DNA from: Candidatus Omnitrophota bacterium
GTDB lineage: Bacteria; Omnitrophota; Gorgyraeia; Gygaellales; JAQTUX01
Length of the DNA: 64,000 nt
Reading direction: 5' to 3'
NCBI GenBank assembly: GCA_028707125.1
Contig: JAQTUX010000002.1
Location: 80,355 to 144,354 of the forward strand
Shown here: positions 4,139 to 34,691 of the stretch, one piece after another
Position numbering within the stretch: the first letter of the stretch is position 1
How the letters are laid out: every line of letters starts with the position of its first letter
Translations under genes and position numbers: made by a program
Notes under the pieces: model-generated
What the model was told of the DNA's origin: nothing
The model's database searches: none
Seen by the model: only the letters and a program-made list of their open reading frames with translations

Positions 4139-4958
4139 GCATCCTCAAGAATCCCAGCCAGTCATAGCATCCGGACATTTTCTTCGCGAATTTGAAATCG
4201 GTATCATCAAAGGCGCTCAACTCGGTTCTCCTCAGGGCAAAAATATCAGTGCCCGCGTCGTTGAGCCCCTCAATACTGGAACAGGAACAGATAAACTTAC
4301 TCCTTCTAACGGCATCTTTGACATTTTTATTGAATATGCCGTGAGGATAGCTGAACGTATTAACCTGGCCCCCTACATGGCTCTCGATCAGGCCTTTGGA
4401 CTTTAAGACCTCATATTCAAGCTCCTGCTCATTCATCTCGGTAAGGCGCCTGTGGCTTAAGGCGTGCGAACCTATGGACAGTCCCGCCTCACGCAGCCCT
4501 TTGACATCATCCCAACTAAGCATATCCCAGTCATGCCAGTACAAGCCGGCGGGAACCTTATTTTCAATAAAGGATATATTGACGAACAGCGTGGCTGGAA
4601 AACCGAATTCTTTTAACACCGGCAACGCGTTTGTCAGAACGCTTTTATAACCGTCGTCAAAGGTGATCACTGCCGATTTGCCGGGGACCCGACGGTTATG
4701 AATAATAATGTCGACTAATTCCGTAAGCCCCAGGACAAGAAAACTATTCTCCTTCAAGTATTTCATCTGCATATAGAATGTGCCGTTCGGAACCGCCAGG
4801 CCCATCTTATCCTTTTTGGGATCATGCCTCTGGATGGAATGGTACAAAAGGATCCTGCATTTCCCTTCCGCGGATAACCCGGCGCCCCTGCCCTTCCTGT
4901 AAGAATACAGGCAGTCAGAAATTTTGTCTTTGATGGCTCTCTTTACGGGCATAATCAC
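4131..4958 (-). CDS. Polysaccharide deacetylase (NodB / CE4 family)
   Basis: NodB-homology motifs (AVITFDDGYKSV...LKEFGFPATLFV...IGSHALSHRRL). Confidence 0.75.
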   Translation of the reverse strand: MIMPVKRAIKDKISDCLYSYRKGRGAGLSAEGKCRILLYHSIQRHDPKKDKMGLAVPNGTFYMQMKYLKENSFLVLGLTELVDIIIHNRRVPGKSAVITFDDGYKSVLTNALPVLKEFGFPATLFVNISFIENKVPAGLYWHDWDMLSWDDVKGLREAGLSIGSHALSHRRLTEMNEQELEYEVLKSKGLIESHVGGQVNTFSYPHGIFNKNVKDAVRRSKFICSCSSIEGLNDAGTDIFALRRTELSAFDDTDFKFAKKMSGCYDWLGFLRMHG

Positions 4959-6454
4959 CTGAATGAATCAAACCCTGCGAAGATATTGAATCTGGTCTTC
5001 AACCTGTAAAACATCTTTATCGCCGCCCACTCTAAAGGCATAATAAAGAAATCGTACTTGACCCGTAAGGCGGCTATCCGGCGCAGCATTCTATAGAAGA
5101 AACCCTTATAGCCATTACTGAACCTGCGTTCCAGTGACTTTGAAGGAAAGGCCAACGGATAAAGGTATTTAACACACATATTGATCTTATCCAGATACGC
5201 GTTGTTTACCCAGGGGGTATTCACCGTAAGGATACTCCAATCCTGCCAATCTTCCAGCTTCTCCGGGACCCTGAGGCCTTTTTTAATAGACAGATCTAAA
5301 AGCGGAGTGCCGGGATAAGGCGTATAGAGAAAAGGCGTGAACTGATGGTCGGGAAAACGTGATTTTATATCCTTGATCAGTTTCAAACTGCGCTGAAGGT
5401 CTTTCTCCGGGTCAAGAGGAAACCCCGCGATCATAAAAAACTCGGATACGATCCTGTGTTTATCCAGTATTTCAGCGGCCTTGACAATATCTCCGGGCCT
5501 TATCTTTTTATCTATAAGATCCAACACATCTTCATCCCCTGTTTCGGCGCCTATATATAATTTGGCGCAGCCGCTCTCTTCCAGTAAAGATATCAAGCTT
5601 TCCGGAAAGCGGTTGATCTGATCCACCCTGGCATCGGTAGCCCATTTGATCCTGATACCGCTGTCAATTATCTTACGGCAAATATCCTCCGCCCGTTTAA
5701 GGTCCACGAAAAAGTTATCTTCGGCGAATGTGATGCCGTCTATCTTATACCTTTTGACCAGCGTATTTATCTGAGCTGATAAGTTATCCGCGCTGAGTCC
5801 GCTCCATCTGCGCTTATAAACCTCCGGCGTGCTGCAAAATCCGCACGCGTAGGGACAGCCCTGGGAAGAATTCCAAAATATTGTCCTGCCGCCTAAAGGG
5901 GTCGTAAATATATATTTCTCAAAATCAAACAGGTCAAATGCCGCGGGGCCGAATTCATTGATATCCCGGAATTGACGCTGATCATTACGCACAACCCTGC
6001 CCTGCCTCTTATATGCTATGCCGTCGACAGACTCCAGGCCCAAACCATGGCTCAAGGCATATGGCAATTCCTTGATGGTCGCCTCTCCCTGGCCTATTAC
6101 TACAATGTCGATATTCTCATTTGCCAATGTCTCCTCCGGTAATATGGACGGATGCCACCCTCCCCAGACCACCGGCAATTCCCCGTTTATTTTTTTTACT
6201 AATGATGAGGCCCTTAGCCCGCCGGCTATCTGATATCCGGTCATGGAACTTACGCCGAAGAATAACGCCTCGGGCAACGCCTGCTTTAAACCATCGATAT
6301 AGTTCTCTTCCATGCGCTCGTCTATAATGACGACTTTATATCCCGCGTTTTTCAGCTCTGAGCCGATCTTAAGCAAAGGAAGCGGGATATTCTTGTTTAT
6401 ATTATCCCTTTCTGTCTTAGGGTAAAATAAGATAATGGTATGCTTGCGGCTCAT
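4955..6454 (-). CDS. B12-binding domain-containing radical SAM protein
   Basis: N-terminal cobalamin-binding Rossmann region (VVWGGWHPS...IDIVVIGQGEATI) followed by CxxxCxxC (GCPYACGFCST). Confidence 0.85.
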   Translation of the reverse strand: MSRKHTIILFYPKTERDNINKNIPLPLLKIGSELKNAGYKVVIIDERMEENYIDGLKQALPEALFFGVSSMTGYQIAGGLRASSLVKKINGELPVVWGGWHPSILPEETLANENIDIVVIGQGEATIKELPYALSHGLGLESVDGIAYKRQGRVVRNDQRQFRDINEFGPAAFDLFDFEKYIFTTPLGGRTIFWNSSQGCPYACGFCSTPEVYKRRWSGLSADNLSAQINTLVKRYKIDGITFAEDNFFVDLKRAEDICRKIIDSGIRIKWATDARVDQINRFPESLISLLEESGCAKLYIGAETGDEDVLDLIDKKIRPGDIVKAAEILDKHRIVSEFFMIAGFPLDPEKDLQRSLKLIKDIKSRFPDHQFTPFLYTPYPGTPLLDLSIKKGLRVPEKLEDWQDWSILTVNTPWVNNAYLDKINMCVKYLYPLAFPSKSLERRFSNGYKGFFYRMLRRIAALRVKYDFFIMPLEWAAIKMFYRLKTRFNIFAGFDSFR

Positions 6455-33158: not shown

Positions 33159-33164
33159 CTACAA

Positions 33165-34691
33165 TCAATATTTACTTACGAAATTTAAACGCTCCCTTAA
33201 ATCAAAGACCTTCTTACACAAAAGAAACTTAAAAAGCCTCTGTTCAATCCCAGGAGAAACTTTCCATAAGCTATAAGATATTATACATACCGAGAATATA
33301 ACAAGATTTAGCGGAAACTTATAGTGTCGGGAAAAAACGAGCCATAAAAGACGCCAGCCGAATTTAACCATAGACCTTTCAATCGATTTATCATAATTCC
33401 AGAACTTGGGCTTGATATACAAAGGATGCATGGGATGAGCGAAAAGTTTTAAGAAAAACGGGGGCTTTTCGGGAAGCCTGAAATTACCCTGGTCACTTAA
33501 CCACCAGTCCGTGAAACGGAACTCCTTATGGTATAACTCATATAATTCTGTTTTTGGATAAGGGACCGGCGTAACAAGAGATGTGAAATATTTTATCCTT
33601 CGGGGGATCCTGCTTATTGCCGCTAAACAACTGGAGAAATGTTCTTCTGTTTCCCAGGGAAAGCCGCAGATATTATTAAATGAGACGAAGGGAAACCCTG
33701 TTTCTTCTATAATCTTGAATTTTTCCAGTATCCTCTCAACGGTATAATTCTTCCTTATCTTTTTAAGGGTATCATTATCCCAGCTCTCAATTCCAAAGCT
33801 CATCCTGGTTATTCCCGCTTCTTTCGCCCTTGAAAGAATGTCCTTATCGATGCTATCGATTCTGGTGCGCATAGATATTCTAATATTTAATTTAGAGCGA
33901 CTGATTAAATCGCATAATCTTATAAATCTCTCCTTGGAACATAATACCTCATCGTCCTGGAAGGCGATATGCCGCACGGAGAATGTATCCGCCAGAAGCT
34001 TAATCTCTTCAAAGACATTCTCGGCTGACCGCATCCTCACCTGCCTGCCGAACATTTTATTGCTGGAACAGAACAAACAATCAAAAGGGCAGCCCCGGCT
34101 TGTAACAATGCTCCAGAATATCGGATTGGAATTCACATCATCAACTCCGGTATAATTGCGTATGGGGAAATCATTAAAATCCGGGAAAGGTAAACTGTCC
34201 AGGTCTGCGATAGGCCTTCTCTTATTTGTGAAGGTTATTTCCCTATCGGCATTGAAAAAACAGATCCCGTCTATGCTGCCTAATGCCCGTCTACCTAAAA
34301 AATACTCCGTTATCTCAACTATGGTTTCTTCTCCTTCGCCTATAGCAACGATGTCGGCGCCGTTTTTTAGAACCTCTTCGGGAAGACCGTTCGCGTGGGG
34401 TCCGCCGGCTACTATAGGAATATTTATCTCTCTCAAATCCCGCAAAAATGAATATGTCTGGAAAATATTATCTATCGTCAATGTGATGCCGATAAAGTCC
34501 GGCTTGAAATCACCAATGAAATCTTTTATTTGCTTGGCGGTGCCTTGTTTATAAGGGGCTGTGGCATCTATAATTTTTACTTCATGCCCAAATTTTCTTA
34601 GATTCGCGGCTAAATAGGCGAGCCCCAGAATTATCTGTCCGGACATAGCTGCGCTGGGCGGATTAAGTAATACTATTCTTCCGTTAGACAT
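33165..34691 (-). CDS. B12-binding domain-containing radical SAM protein
   Basis: B12-binding N-terminus (IVAGGPHANGLPEE...DIVAIGEGEETI). CxxxCxxC (GCPFDCLFCSS). Confidence 0.85.
   Translation of the reverse strand: MSNGRIVLLNPPSAAMSGQIILGLAYLAANLRKFGHEVKIIDATAPYKQGTAKQIKDFIGDFKPDFIGITLTIDNIFQTYSFLRDLREINIPIVAGGPHANGLPEEVLKNGADIVAIGEGEETIVEITEYFLGRRALGSIDGICFFNADREITFTNKRRPIADLDSLPFPDFNDFPIRNYTGVDDVNSNPIFWSIVTSRGCPFDCLFCSSNKMFGRQVRMRSAENVFEEIKLLADTFSVRHIAFQDDEVLCSKERFIRLCDLISRSKLNIRISMRTRIDSIDKDILSRAKEAGITRMSFGIESWDNDTLKKIRKNYTVERILEKFKIIEETGFPFVSFNNICGFPWETEEHFSSCLAAISRIPRRIKYFTSLVTPVPYPKTELYELYHKEFRFTDWWLSDQGNFRLPEKPPFFLKLFAHPMHPLYIKPKFWNYDKSIERSMVKFGWRLLWLVFSRHYKFPLNLVIFSVCIISYSLWKVSPGIEQRLFKFLLCKKVFDLRERLNFVSKY

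What the first reader, a model, noticed from the sequence alone, without database searches (positions are those of the whole stretch)
4955..34691. Four B12-binding radical SAM enzymes plus one SPASM radical SAM enzyme in one polysaccharide locus
Four ORFs carry a cobalamin-binding domain followed by CxxxCxxC: 4955..6454, 21216..22748, 30398..32101 and 33165..34691. One further ORF, 7338..8444, is a SPASM-type radical SAM enzyme.

Class-B radical SAM enzymes typically methylate unactivated carbons or phosphinate centres (GenK, Fom3, TsrM-like). Four in one glycan cluster suggests multiple C-methylations or other radical tailoring of sugars or acyl groups, and points to an anaerobic, cobalamin-dependent host. 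Such density is rare in described O-antigen or capsule loci.
Basis: partly seen in the sequence, partly recalled or inferred. Interest (0 to 1): 0.65.

Follow-up and report, generated by a model that had tools for sequence, protein, structure and literature searches.

The report
Radical SAM cassettes tailoring surface sugars
A very long surface-sugar gene cluster from an uncultured Omnitrophota bacterium carries four mutually distant B12-type radical SAM enzymes (six counting DNA just past the window), each tied to its own conserved sugar-pathway cassette; they probably methylate or otherwise radically modify activated sugars, but no reaction was shown here.

Summary
All four ORFs have an N-terminal Pfam B12-binding domain, a Radical_SAM core and a CxxxCxxC motif. 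The fifth ORF is a radical SAM enzyme with a shortened SPASM/twitch-like tail.

- **Relationship:** the four are not recent paralogues. They are 23-27% identical and belong to four separate orthologue groups found in Omnitrophota, Brocadiaceae, Nitrospirae, Saganbacteria and other mostly uncultured lineages.
- **Family membership:** none reaches the curated cut-off of any characterised family (BchE, HpnJ, PhpK type, QCMT, AprD4 and others).
- **rSAM-4:** its orthologues lie beside nonulosonic-acid genes (NeuB, CMP-sugar synthetase).
- **rSAM-3:** an optional gene inside a conserved module: GFO oxidoreductase, Ldh_2, cytidylyltransferase, a GT2-cytidylyltransferase fusion, a 640-aa protein and an ABC exporter.
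- **rSAM-2:** travels with a GT-B-like protein, and a more distant relative (41% identity) is fused to a pyruvyl transferase.
- **rSAM-1:** sits in a GT2, deacetylase, acyltransferase, GT1 cassette.
- **Extent:** the locus continues past the window and holds two more B12-type radical SAM genes. One has a 49% orthologue on plasmid pDMC1 of cultured Solidesulfovibrio magneticus RS-1.
- **Rarity:** several such genes per locus is common among relatives.

Most likely function is cobalamin-dependent radical tailoring, probably C-methylation, of CMP- or lipid-linked sugars. This is unproven. Interest is moderate.

The parts
4955..6454 (-). rSAM-1: class-B (B12-binding domain) radical SAM enzyme, 499 aa, CPYACGFC at residue 200
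   Evidence: Pfam hits above gathering. Below every NCBIfam cut-off. Only 5 representative clusters at 41% identity or more among 44,170 relatives. A 58% orthologue with the same neighbours in a Eubacteriales MAG (L013).
21216..22748 (-). rSAM-2: class-B radical SAM enzyme, 510 aa, CPYQCTFC at residue 216
   Evidence: Pfam. Orthologues at 54-71% in Omnitrophota and Nitrospirae. P0315 is a fusion with a pyruvyl transferase. The orthologue in L010 sits next to a w16748-like protein.
30398..32101 (-). rSAM-3: class-B radical SAM enzyme, 567 aa, CFGSCSFC at residue 225; optional gene of the GFO/Ldh_2/CMP module
   Evidence: Pfam. Orthologues at 41-66%. Synteny. AlphaFold model pLDDT 91.5, matching TsrM, QCMT, AprD4, OxsB, CysS and TokK. 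GC 0.393 against 0.444 and 0.479 in the flanking genes.
33165..34691 (-). rSAM-4: class-B radical SAM enzyme, 508 aa, CPFDCLFC at residue 201; family associated with nonulosonic-acid genes
   Evidence: Pfam. Orthologue group at 44-59%. Three of three orthologue neighbourhoods carry NeuB plus CTP_transf_3. GC 0.411 against 0.479 and 0.464 in the flanking genes.
7338..8444 (-). Radical SAM enzyme with shortened SPASM/twitch-like C-terminal domain, 368 aa, CNLKCVMC at residue 47
   Evidence: Radical_SAM 84.6 bits. SPASM 17.2 bits, below the 21.5 cut-off. Cys pattern. Alignment with SPASM-annotated relatives from L009 and L010. Best solved relatives are SkfB, BlsE and MoaA, matching the N-terminal core only.
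34684..35868 (-). GFO/IDH/MocA sugar oxidoreductase, core of the conserved module
   Evidence: Pfam. 54-61% orthologues adjacent to Ldh_2 in L005-L010 and L093-L105.
32085..33158 (-). Ldh_2-family 2-oxo/2-hydroxy-acid dehydrogenase, core of the conserved module
   Evidence: Pfam 364 bits. NCBIfam relatives AllD, sulfolactate dehydrogenase and 3-dehydro-L-gulonate 2-dehydrogenase, all below cut-off. 50-74% orthologues.
29728..30444 (-). CTP_transf_3 cytidylyltransferase (CMP-ulosonic-acid synthetase type)
   Evidence: Pfam. NCBIfam PseF and KdsB hits below cut-off. A 72% orthologue directly after Ldh_2 in L107.
25994..29726 (-). Four dehydrogenase genes: 2-hydroxyacid dehydrogenase, ketol-acid reductoisomerase (IlvC-like), SDR, 2-hydroxyacid dehydrogenase
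   Evidence: Pfam. ilvC TIGR00465 scores 243 bits, above its 226 cut-off. The same order at 61-69% identity in L107.
24649..26004 (-). GT2 glycosyltransferase fused to a CTP_transf_3 domain, core of the conserved module
   Evidence: Pfam. 53-72% orthologues.
22720..24639 (-). Conserved 639-aa protein of the module, function unknown; possibly a glycosyltransferase
   Evidence: No Pfam hit. Weak BFO_1060-family glycosyltransferase hit, E 6e-4. 30-46% orthologues. No solved relative by profile search.
19432..21219 (-). Fused ABC exporter (ABC_membrane + ABC_tran)
   Evidence: Pfam. 53-56% orthologues at the same module position in L009, L101 and L105.
16748..19402 (-). Polysaccharide pyruvyl transferase (18365-19402) and a GT-B-like 538-aa protein (16748-18364)
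   Evidence: PS_pyruv_trans. The w16748 family is 42-45% identical in L009 and L010, next to a radical SAM gene. Weak GT-B hit to 9wde, E 0.0015.
35872..47607 (-). Nonulosonic-acid block: 614-aa PFTS-like protein, GT2+CTP_transf_3, short NeuB (39115-39825), AsnB, CTP_transf_3 (41694-42422), AAC(3)-like+DUF4910, SDR, MaoC, FkbH+GNAT
   Evidence: Pfam. FkbH TIGR01686 scores 299 bits, above cut-off. DUF4910 (52%) and FkbH (31%) orthologues flank the rSAM-4 orthologue in L004.
1155..4958 (-). rSAM-1 cassette partners: GT1+DUF218, Acetyltransf_6 (FemAB-like GNAT), polysaccharide deacetylase
   Evidence: Pfam. 54%, 25% and 53% orthologues in the same order beside the rSAM-1 orthologue in L013.
6451..7335 (-). 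GT2 glycosyltransferase overlapping rSAM-1 by 4 bases
   Evidence: Pfam. Overlap. An ORF at the same position, directly upstream of the rSAM-1 orthologue, in L013; its best window match is the GT2-containing protein w37742, 33%.
62000..64000 (-). Start of a further cassette that continues past the window: GT2, GDP-fucose-synthase-like epimerase, C-terminus of a DegT aminotransferase. Beyond position 64000: DAO, E1-beta, E1-alpha, B12-rSAM-5, NTP-transferase, GHMP kinase, epimerase, GT2, B12-rSAM-6
   Evidence: Orthologous cassette at 34-58% identity on Solidesulfovibrio magneticus RS-1 plasmid pDMC1.

Best explanation
The four genes encode class-B radical SAM enzymes: an N-terminal cobalamin-type Rossmann domain followed by a [4Fe-4S]/SAM barrel. 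They come from four different orthologue groups. Each is a tailoring component of a separate, horizontally shuffled sugar-pathway cassette inside one very large surface-glycan locus of an Omnitrophota bacterium.

Shown:
- domain architecture, Cys triad and fold;
- distinct orthologue groups;
- conserved cassette partners.

Inferred mechanism, by analogy with Fom3, GenK, TokK and QCMT:
1. The reduced cluster cleaves SAM to a 5'-deoxyadenosyl radical.
2. That radical abstracts a hydrogen from an unactivated carbon of a sugar intermediate.
3. The substrate radical takes a methyl group from methylcobalamin.
4. A second SAM re-methylates the cobalamin.

Inferred substrates:
- rSAM-3 and rSAM-4: CMP-activated nonulosonic or other ulosonic acids, their 6-deoxyhexose precursors, or their N-acyl groups.
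- rSAM-2: a nucleotide- or lipid-linked sugar handled by the neighbouring GT-B-like protein and pyruvyl transferase.
- rSAM-1: an amino sugar that is de-N-acetylated and re-acylated by its neighbours.

I put about 0.8 on 'glycan-tailoring class-B-fold radical SAM enzymes'. I put about 0.45 on cobalamin-dependent C-methylation being the chemistry of most of them.
For: - **Architecture and motifs:**
- **Fold:** the rSAM-3 model (pLDDT 91.5) matches TsrM, QCMT (TM 0.73), OxsB, CysS and TokK. The closest solved relative by sequence for three of the four is the methylase QCMT, entry 9ccb; for rSAM-4 AprD4 edges it (1.3e-13 against 2.3e-13).
- **Glycan context and coupling:** 4-47 base overlaps with neighbouring sugar genes.
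- **rSAM-4:** orthologues at 46-48% lie beside NeuB, CTP_transf_3 and PseB/LegB-like genes in three unrelated MAGs.
- **rSAM-3:** orthologues at 49-57% sit inside the GFO/Ldh_2/CTP_transf_3/GT2-CTP module in Brocadiaceae, Saganbacteria and groundwater contigs. The gene is missing from otherwise orthologous modules (L010, L101, L107), which is the behaviour of an optional tailoring step.
- **rSAM-2:** a relative (41% identity) is fused to a pyruvyl transferase.
- **rSAM-1:** cassette conserved at 53-58% in a Eubacteriales MAG.
- **Precedents:** Fom3 methylates a CMP-tagged substrate (PMC8158854). Nonulosonic-acid tailoring happens at the CMP-sugar level, and +14 Da and C10 CMP-ulosonic acids of unknown origin have been detected (bioRxiv 10.64898/2026.04.20.719630).
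Against: - No reaction, product or cofactor was observed.
- None of the four reaches any curated NCBIfam cut-off. The best is BchE at 131-155 bits against 481.
- AprD4, which does not bind cobalamin, is as close as the methylases by sequence (E 1e-9 to 2e-17) and by fold (TM 0.72).
- rSAM-2 lacks the GEGE-like motif, and rSAM-4 has T-L-T in place of S-x-M.
- The lower-axial residue that separates methylases from other class-B enzymes could not be assigned.
- No cobalamin gene or riboswitch lies in the window.
- Ordinary SAM methyltransferases are also encoded (12328, 47612, 59481).
- Relatives at 25-30% identity occur in RiPP-like loci, so superfamily membership says nothing about substrate.
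Confidence: 0.45

Rival explanations
1. Some or all are AprD4-like, cobalamin-independent radical dehydratases. They would remove a hydroxyl from a sugar diol to give a ketone, which a neighbouring NAD(P)H enzyme (GFO, Ldh_2, SDR or 2-hydroxyacid dehydrogenase) then reduces. The result would be deoxy-ulosonic acids made without the usual 4,6-dehydratase route.
For: - AprD4 (6fd2) is the second-best solved relative for three of the four and the best for rSAM-4 (E 2e-17 to 1.7e-9).
- It is structurally as close as QCMT (TM 0.72).
- AprD4 has a Rossmann-like N-domain without cobalamin.
- rSAM-3 and rSAM-4 are flanked by dehydrogenases.
- The window holds no PseB/LegB-type dehydratase next to its NeuB.
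Against: - The AprD4 equivalog model scores only 50-83 bits against a cut-off of 500.
- The flanking GFO and Ldh_2 genes persist in modules that lack rSAM-3, so they are not its dedicated partners.
- The S-x-M...GG fingerprint and the strongly conserved N-domain fit cofactor binding.
Confidence: 0.15
2. They use cobalamin for non-methylating radical chemistry, as OxsB or HpnJ do. Possible reactions are ring contraction, carbon-skeleton rearrangement or epimerisation of the sugar, giving branched or contracted sugars.
For: - HpnJ is among the best NCBIfam hits (99-121 bits; second best for rSAM-3). From my own knowledge, HpnJ acts on the glucosamine part of a hopanoid.
- OxsB is among the fold matches.
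- A KARI-type rearranging reductoisomerase and E1-type thiamine enzymes in the locus show that carbon-skeleton chemistry is part of these pathways.
Against: - All scores are far below cut-offs (577.6 for HpnJ).
- Most characterised class-B enzymes are methylases (and my own knowledge).
- No specific signature for these reactions exists to test.
Confidence: 0.15
3. The enzymes do not act on the glycan. They would modify a peptide, lipid or cofactor and merely be encoded in the locus.
For: - Relatives at 25-30% identity sit in a RiPP-like locus with a PqqD-family chaperone and an S8 peptidase in Clostridium estertheticum.
- Most rSAM-1 relatives at 30-39% lie in arrays of radical SAM and methyltransferase genes, with few matches to the window's sugar genes.
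Against: - True orthologues (46% identity or more) of all four were always found inside sugar cassettes, in several phyla.
- The genes overlap their sugar-gene neighbours.
- No precursor peptide, PqqD/RRE or lipid-synthesis gene lies in the window.
Confidence: 0.05

Closest known systems
QCMT / MgmA (PDB 9CCB), cobalamin-dependent radical SAM glutamine C-methyltransferase of methyl-coenzyme M reductase
   Same: Closest solved protein by sequence for three of the four and a close second for rSAM-4 (E 4e-18 to 1.6e-11). Top fold match for rSAM-3 (TM 0.73). Same N-terminal Rossmann domain plus radical SAM barrel.
   Different: It acts on a protein glutamine. Identity is about 18%. Its NCBIfam model (TIGR04014) scores only 63-103 bits against a cut-off of 360. 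The genomic context here is sugar pathways.
Fom3 (fosfomycin) and GenK/GenD1 (gentamicin): class-B radical SAM C-methyltransferases
   Same: They methylate unactivated sp3 carbons. Fom3's substrate carries a CMP handle (PMC8158854), as the CMP-sugars implied here would. From my own knowledge, GenK adds a carbon to the terminal C-6' of an aminosugar, which is the analogy for chain-extended ulosonic acids.
   Different: They belong to antibiotic pathways of actinomycetes. The PhpK-family model scores 80-109 bits against 600. GenK was not compared directly. There are no phosphonate genes here.
AprD4 (PDB 6FD2), radical SAM 1,2-diol dehydratase of apramycin biosynthesis
   Same: It acts on a sugar. 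It is the second-closest solved relative for three of the four and the closest for rSAM-4, and has an equal fold match.
   Different: It does not bind cobalamin. Its equivalog model scores 50-83 bits against 500.
HpnJ, hopanoid-associated class-B radical SAM enzyme
   Same: It is a cell-envelope rather than antibiotic pathway, and acts on an amino-sugar moiety (my own knowledge). It gives high relative NCBIfam scores of 99-121 bits.
   Different: Its cut-off of 577.6 is not met. There are no hopanoid genes here.
Nonulosonic-acid tailoring systems such as EpaA/EpaB (8-epimerisation of pseudaminic acid)
   Same: Extra CTP_transf_3 domains fused or adjacent to redox enzymes that remodel a nonulosonic acid (PMC12053666). 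Tailoring takes place at the CMP-sugar level.
   Different: Those systems use only NAD(P)-dependent enzymes. No paper retrieved in the searched library pairs a radical SAM enzyme with these pathways.

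Membership tests
Class-B (cobalamin-binding-domain) radical SAM enzymes | CxxxCxxC motif for the SAM-cleaving [4Fe-4S] cluster | tested here: met
   Present in all four at residues 200, 216, 225 and 201, and invariant in their alignment. C229 and C232 invariant and C225 conserved in at least 90% of the 56 rSAM-3 relatives.
Class-B (cobalamin-binding-domain) radical SAM enzymes | Radical_SAM core (PF04055) preceded by an N-terminal B12-binding Rossmann domain (PF02310), both above Pfam gathering scores | tested here: met
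   All four: PF02310 48.8-73.9 bits (cut-off 32.1); PF04055 64.9-94.5 bits (cut-off 29.5).
Class-B (cobalamin-binding-domain) radical SAM enzymes | Three-dimensional fold like TsrM, QCMT, TokK and OxsB | tested here: met
   Tested for rSAM-3 only: model pLDDT 91.5; Foldseek E 4e-19 to 4e-14 against TsrM, QCMT, OxsB, CysS and TokK. Not modelled for the other three.
Class-B (cobalamin-binding-domain) radical SAM enzymes | Cobalamin-binding sequence fingerprint (SxL...GG; no DxHxxG because binding is base-off/His-off) | tested here: inconclusive
   No DxHxxG motif. S-x-M in three and T-L-T in rSAM-4, followed by GG after 23-26 residues. G-E/Q-G-E is present in three of four. I do not know whether AprD4, which lacks cobalamin, also shows this fingerprint.
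Class-B (cobalamin-binding-domain) radical SAM enzymes | Actual binding and use of cobalamin | not testable with these tools
   Needs purified protein. The review PMC12931638 warns that AprD4 and ArsL look similar but bind none.
Characterised class-B equivalogs (BchE, HpnJ, HpnR, PhpK type, QCMT, BzaD, TsrM, KedN5, AprD4, ladderane-type, ArsL) | Whole-protein score at or above the curated NCBIfam cut-off | tested here: not met
   The best hit for each is BchE at 130.6-154.7 bits against 481.35. All other models are also far below cut-off.
SPASM/twitch radical SAM enzymes (ORF 7338-8444) | C-terminal SPASM domain (PF13186) with the seven-Cys pattern CX9-15GX4C ... CX2CX5CX3C ... C | tested here: not met
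   PF13186 scores 17.2 bits, below 21.5. There are only five Cys: C281-x18-C300 ... C335-x2-C338-x-C340.
SPASM/twitch radical SAM enzymes (ORF 7338-8444) | Shortened (twitch-like) auxiliary-cluster domain shared with relatives | tested here: met
   G294, C300, C335 and C338 are invariant in an alignment with three locus relatives whose products have a SPASM hit on record.
Nonulosonic-acid (NeuB-type) biosynthesis locus | NeuB-family synthase plus CMP-sugar synthetase (CTP_transf_3) | tested here: met
   NeuB PF03102 scores 177 bits at 39115-39825. There are four CTP_transf_3 domains (24649, 29728, 37742, 41694).
Nonulosonic-acid (NeuB-type) biosynthesis locus | Equivalog-level NeuB, PseI or PseF, and the upstream dehydratase, aminotransferase and acetyltransferase genes of the Pse/Leg routes | tested here: not met
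   NeuB_NnaB scores 198.7 against 399.65, PseI 152.8 against 340.25 and PseF at most 55 against 205.7. NeuB is 236 aa and lacks the SAF domain. No PseB/LegB-type dehydratase lies in the window; a DegT aminotransferase lies just outside it. The sugar made may therefore not be a classical Pse or Leg.

The most novel reading that the evidence does not exclude
The class-B radical SAM enzymes linked to NeuB and cytidylyltransferase genes (the rSAM-3 and rSAM-4 families) add carbon to the backbone of CMP-activated nonulosonic acids or their 6-deoxyhexose precursors. This would be a GenK-like methylation of the terminal or another unactivated carbon. The products would be chain-extended or branched C10 ulosonic acids.

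That would supply the missing biosynthetic step for the unassigned C10 CMP-ulosonic acids and +14 Da CMP-nonulosonic acids seen by mass spectrometry in Magnetospirillum and Kuenenia.

It would also make the conserved GFO, Ldh_2, cytidylyltransferase, GT2-cytidylyltransferase, 640-aa protein and ABC exporter module an undescribed pathway for a new CMP-sugar of anaerobes.
Probability: 0.2. Interest if true: 0.8.

Novelty: new variant of a known kind. Interest (0 to 1): 0.55.

Why it matters
Class-B radical SAM enzymes are among the largest pools of enzymes with unknown function. rSAM-1 alone has 44,170 representative clusters of relatives. Their known sugar chemistry comes almost entirely from antibiotic pathways.

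This locus and its relatives show four to six separate orthologue groups recruited repeatedly into cell-surface sugar cassettes. The hosts are mostly uncultured, largely anaerobic lineages: Omnitrophota, anammox Brocadiaceae, Nitrospirae and Saganbacteria. Two of the groups are tied to CMP-ulosonic-acid genes.

If they methylate sugar carbons, they would explain unusual higher-carbon or +14 Da nonulosonic acids. They would also widen the known chemistry of bacterial surface glycans.

The work yields concrete handles:
- defined cassette partners;
- natural with/without pairs for rSAM-3;
- a cultured host, Solidesulfovibrio magneticus RS-1 plasmid pDMC1, for one sister cassette.

If they prove ordinary, the result is still a useful map of which class-B families belong to glycan pathways.

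Tried and rejected
1. **Recent duplication of one gene.** Rejected: 23-27% pairwise identity and separate orthologue groups.
2. **Assignment to a characterised family.** No NCBIfam cut-off is met.
3. **Separating methylase from non-methylase by the lower-axial residue** (TokK W76). The phmmer alignment to TokK starts six residues too late and the four proteins differ at the inferred column. Abandoned as unreliable.
4. **Context of rSAM-1 from the genome collection.** Of 311 relatives only one exceeds 40% identity. The rest (30-39%) lie mostly in other contexts, often arrays of 2-6 such genes, so they do not bear on function.
5. **Plasmid search for cultured hosts.** rSAM-1 to rSAM-4 give only hits at 31% identity or below. 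One is in a RiPP-like locus.
6. **Identity of the conserved unknown proteins** (families of 22720, 35872 and 16748). Profile searches against solved structures found nothing for two families and only a weak GT-B hit for the third. Profile-profile comparison among them gave 2-3% probability.
7. **Rfam scan for a cobalamin riboswitch.** No hit of any family.
8. **Literature link between radical SAM enzymes and nonulosonic acids or glycan loci.** Nothing retrieved in the held library. Subscription-only papers are not covered.
9. **Organism names for unnamed orthologues.** None obtained.
10. **Downstream flank of the window.** The look-up found no record.

Full report
**1. What is in the window**

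The 64-kb window is one uninterrupted run of about 52 genes, all on the minus strand. GC content is 0.44. Most neighbouring genes overlap or lie a few bases apart.

Pfam and NCBIfam annotation shows a surface-glycan locus containing:
- many GT2 and GT4 glycosyltransferases;
- four GT-C (PMT_2) enzymes, two directly beside small GT2 genes and two within one or two genes of one;
- NDP-sugar epimerases and dehydratases;
- four AsnB-type amidotransferases, one fused to a WbuX-like N-acetyl-sugar amidotransferase domain;
- a pyruvyl transferase and an ABC exporter;
- a short NeuB synthase and four CTP_transf_3 cytidylyltransferase domains;
- an FkbH-domain protein and several dehydrogenases.

The source is an uncultured Omnitrophota bacterium. 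A 100% identical protein is annotated 'MAG: radical SAM protein [Candidatus Omnitrophica bacterium]' on a 510-kb contig. The same DNA also sits on a 104-kb Logan contig.

**2. Check of the observation**

Each of the four ORFs has a B12-binding domain and a Radical_SAM domain above Pfam gathering scores, plus a CxxxCxxC motif at residues 200 to 225.
- The Cys triad is invariant among the four.
- In 56 relatives of rSAM-3, C229 and C232 are invariant and C225 is conserved in at least 90%.
- There is no DxHxxG motif.
- An S/T-x-M/T motif followed by GG at near-canonical spacing is present in all four.
- A G-E/Q-G-E motif is present in three of the four.

ORF 7338-8444 is a radical SAM enzyme. Its C-terminal domain falls below the SPASM threshold and has five rather than seven Cys. 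It shares G294, C300, C335 and C338 with locus relatives that do carry a SPASM hit on record. 'SPASM-type' is therefore acceptable only in the sense of a shortened, twitch-like domain.

No other radical SAM motif occurs in the rest of the window. The locus does continue past position 64000, however. Within the next 10 kb lie two more B12-binding radical SAM genes:
- rSAM-5 is 490 aa with CPFNCSYC at residue 227.
- rSAM-6 is 525 aa.
- rSAM-5 is 24-27% identical to the four in the window.

**3. Relationship among the four**

They are 23-27% identical, so they are not recent duplicates. Each has its own orthologue group.

| Enzyme | Orthologue identity | Lineages or count |
|---|---|---|
| rSAM-4 | 44-59%, then a drop to 39% | Omnitrophota, Phycisphaerae, Oligoflexia, Pseudomonadota |
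| rSAM-3 | 41-66% | Omnitrophota, Brocadiaceae, Saganbacteria, Deltaproteobacteria |
| rSAM-2 | 54-71% | Omnitrophota, Nitrospirae |
| rSAM-1 | 41% or more in only five representative clusters | out of 44,170 relatives |

**4. What they resemble**

None reaches the curated cut-off of any NCBIfam family. The generic BchE model scores best, at 131-155 bits against 481.

By sequence, the closest solved structures are 9CCB and the cobalamin-independent diol dehydratase AprD4. TokK, CysS, OxsB and TsrM follow. The review PMC12931638 identifies 9CCB as the glutamine C-methyltransferase QCMT.

A high-confidence model of rSAM-3 (pLDDT 91.5, pTM 0.90) gives the same list by fold. QCMT scores TM 0.73 and AprD4 TM 0.72.

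Class-B fold membership is therefore firm. The chemistry is not. The same review stresses that AprD4 and ArsL have a similar N-terminal domain but bind no cobalamin. It also says methylases differ from other class-B enzymes in the residue below the corrin. I could not place that residue reliably.

**5. Context: four cassettes**

*rSAM-4.* In three unrelated MAGs the orthologue (46-48%) lies beside NeuB, CTP_transf_3 and PseB/LegB-like dehydratases. NeuC-like epimerase, aminotransferase or formyltransferase genes are also nearby. In the Oligoflexia locus it is followed by DUF4910 (52%) and FkbH (31%) orthologues of window genes 42419 and 45817. That locus also has a short NeuB, as the window does.

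*rSAM-3.* It lies inside a module that recurs at 50-74% identity in Brocadiaceae, Saganbacteria, Nitrospirae and groundwater contigs. The module comprises:
- GFO/IDH/MocA oxidoreductase;
- Ldh_2 dehydrogenase;
- CTP_transf_3 cytidylyltransferase;
- a GT2-CTP_transf_3 fusion;
- a roughly 640-aa protein;
- an ABC exporter.

rSAM-3 orthologues occur in most instances. They are missing from L010 and L101, and were not seen in the partly covered L103. L107 keeps the window's order Ldh_2, CTP_transf_3, 2-hydroxyacid dehydrogenase, KARI, SDR at 61-74% identity without rSAM-3. An optional gene in a fixed module is what a tailoring step looks like. Its GC content (0.393) is also lower than that of its flanking genes.

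*rSAM-2.*
- Its 63% orthologue in a Nitrospirae MAG follows a w16748-like GT-B-like protein in the same super-module.
- A more distant relative (41% identity) is fused to a pyruvyl-transferase domain. In the window a pyruvyl transferase lies two genes downstream.
- A third orthologue sits in a Wzy-type locus with two other B12-type radical SAM genes.

*rSAM-1.* A Eubacteriales MAG has the same neighbours in the same order: an upstream ORF with weak GT2-family similarity (33% to w37742), rSAM-1 (58%), deacetylase (53%), Acetyltransf_6 (25%) and GT1+DUF218 (54%). Relatives at about 35% in Planctomycetota and Desulfobacterota MAGs again sit beside NeuB and CTP_transf_3.

*rSAM-5 (outside the window).* It has a 49% orthologue next to a transketolase-like gene in Brocadiaceae. 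It also has a 49% orthologue on plasmid pDMC1 of cultured Solidesulfovibrio magneticus RS-1. There the whole cassette is conserved at 34-58% identity: GT2, radical SAM, GHMP kinase, E1-alpha, E1-beta, GDP-fucose-synthase-like epimerase, DegT, epimerase and NTP-transferase.

**6. Is the density unusual?**

It is unusual compared with described O-antigen or capsule loci, as far as I know and as far as the searched literature shows. It is not unusual among relatives:
- Brocadiaceae loci carry three such genes.
- L011 carries three.
- L009 carries one B12-type and two SPASM-type genes.
- 59 of 80 loci fetched with rSAM-1 carry 2-6 B12-type radical SAM genes within 21 kb.

**7. Mechanism**

The best-supported reading is that these are glycan-tailoring class-B radical SAM enzymes. 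The default chemistry of the class is cobalamin-dependent methylation of an unactivated carbon:
1. SAM is cleaved to a 5'-deoxyadenosyl radical.
2. The radical abstracts a hydrogen from the substrate.
3. The substrate radical takes a methyl group from methylcobalamin.
4. A second SAM re-methylates the cobalamin.

Three precedents make CMP-activated ulosonic acids plausible substrates for rSAM-3 and rSAM-4:
- Fom3 works on a CMP-tagged substrate (PMC8158854).
- Nonulosonic-acid tailoring happens at the CMP-sugar level in Kuenenia.
- CMP-linked ulosonic acids with a C10 backbone (Magnetospirillum) and +14.01 Da CMP-nonulosonic acids (Kuenenia) have been detected without a biosynthetic explanation.

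All of this is inference. No product or cofactor was observed, and the AprD4-type and rearrangement rivals remain open.

**8. Comparison with what is known, and novelty**

The enzymes are members of a known superfamily but of no characterised family. Their repeated recruitment into CMP-ulosonic-acid and other surface-sugar cassettes of uncultured anaerobes is, as far as I could find, undescribed. Searches retrieved no such paper in the held library, which lacks most subscription journals.

I rate it a new variant of a known kind, of moderate interest. It is a well-defined lead with experimental handles rather than a new principle.

Noticed in passing
beyond window 64000 (L111 1-10000; L111 position x = window 73921 - x): The locus continues upstream: DegT aminotransferase (its C-terminus is window 63920-64000), DAO, E1-beta, E1-alpha, B12-rSAM-5, NTP-transferase, GHMP kinase, epimerase, GT2 and B12-rSAM-6. 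The cluster therefore holds at least six B12-type radical SAM genes in about 74 kb.
   Followed up: partly
L113 (Solidesulfovibrio magneticus RS-1 plasmid pDMC1, NC_012797.1 22514-33320): A cultured sulfate reducer carries an orthologous cassette at 34-58% identity. It includes a B12-type radical SAM gene (WP_012750628.1), E1-type thiamine enzymes, a kinase, DegT and an epimerase, followed by a lipid-carrier-dependent glycosyltransferase. This is a possible experimental system.
   Followed up: partly
window 19432-35868, and L005-L010, L093-L107: A conserved multi-phylum module: GFO/IDH/MocA, Ldh_2, CTP_transf_3, GT2-CTP_transf_3 fusion, a roughly 640-aa unknown protein and an ABC exporter. Identity is 50-74% for the core genes. 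I could not match it to any described CMP-sugar pathway.
   Followed up: partly
window 25994-29726: A ketol-acid reductoisomerase (ilvC model above cut-off), two D-2-hydroxyacid dehydrogenases and an SDR sit between two cytidylyltransferase genes. The same order occurs in L107. This suggests a branched hydroxy-acid or rearranged sugar acid is made and possibly CMP-activated.
   Followed up: no
window 39115-39825; L004 8058-8702: The NeuB-family synthase is only 236 aa, lacks the SAF domain and is below the NeuB and PseI cut-offs. A similarly short NeuB (214 aa) lies near the rSAM-4 orthologue in an Oligoflexia MAG.
   Followed up: no
window 22720-24639, 35872-37716, 16748-18364: Three conserved large proteins (639, 614 and 538 aa) lack Pfam domains. 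They give only weak hints: BFO_1060-family glycosyltransferase, PFTS-motif polysaccharide protein, and LIC13510 family/GT-B. They may be transferases for the CMP-sugars.
   Followed up: partly
window 8441-10294, 48983-50275, 51160-52407, 57977-59476, with GT2 genes 15763, 50253, 52365, 62000: Four GT-C (PMT_2) membrane glycosyltransferases and four small GT2 enzymes of the polyprenyl-phosphate-sugar synthase type. The 48983/50253 and 51160/52365 pairs are adjacent; 8441 and 57977 have their proposed GT2 partner (15763, 62000) further away. This suggests several periplasmic-side glycosylation steps.
   Followed up: no
window 10309-12294: A glutamine amidotransferase domain is fused to a WbuX-like N-acetyl-sugar amidotransferase / PP-loop domain (142 bits, below the 203 cut-off). 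Three further AsnB-type genes lie at 39816, 53770 and 60082. Amidation or acetamidino formation is likely.
   Followed up: no
L014 (Thermoleophilia MAG), L015 (Gaiellales MAG) and 57 other loci of L013-L092: Arrays of 2-6 B12-type radical SAM genes within 21 kb, often with class-I methyltransferases. In 20 of 80 loci a w7338-like radical SAM gene is also present. These occur in many phyla, and their product is unknown.
   Followed up: no
P0315 (L012 610-3288), P0354, L007 417-2747: Natural fusions: B12-radical SAM with a pyruvyl transferase (892 aa); methyltransferase with B12-radical SAM (763 aa); GT2 with radical SAM (776 aa). They link radical SAM chemistry physically to glycan enzymes.
   Followed up: partly
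window 1-1150, minus strand: An ORF running off the window start encodes a protein with an N-terminal membrane helix and no tested family. It lies downstream of the last glycan gene.
   Followed up: no
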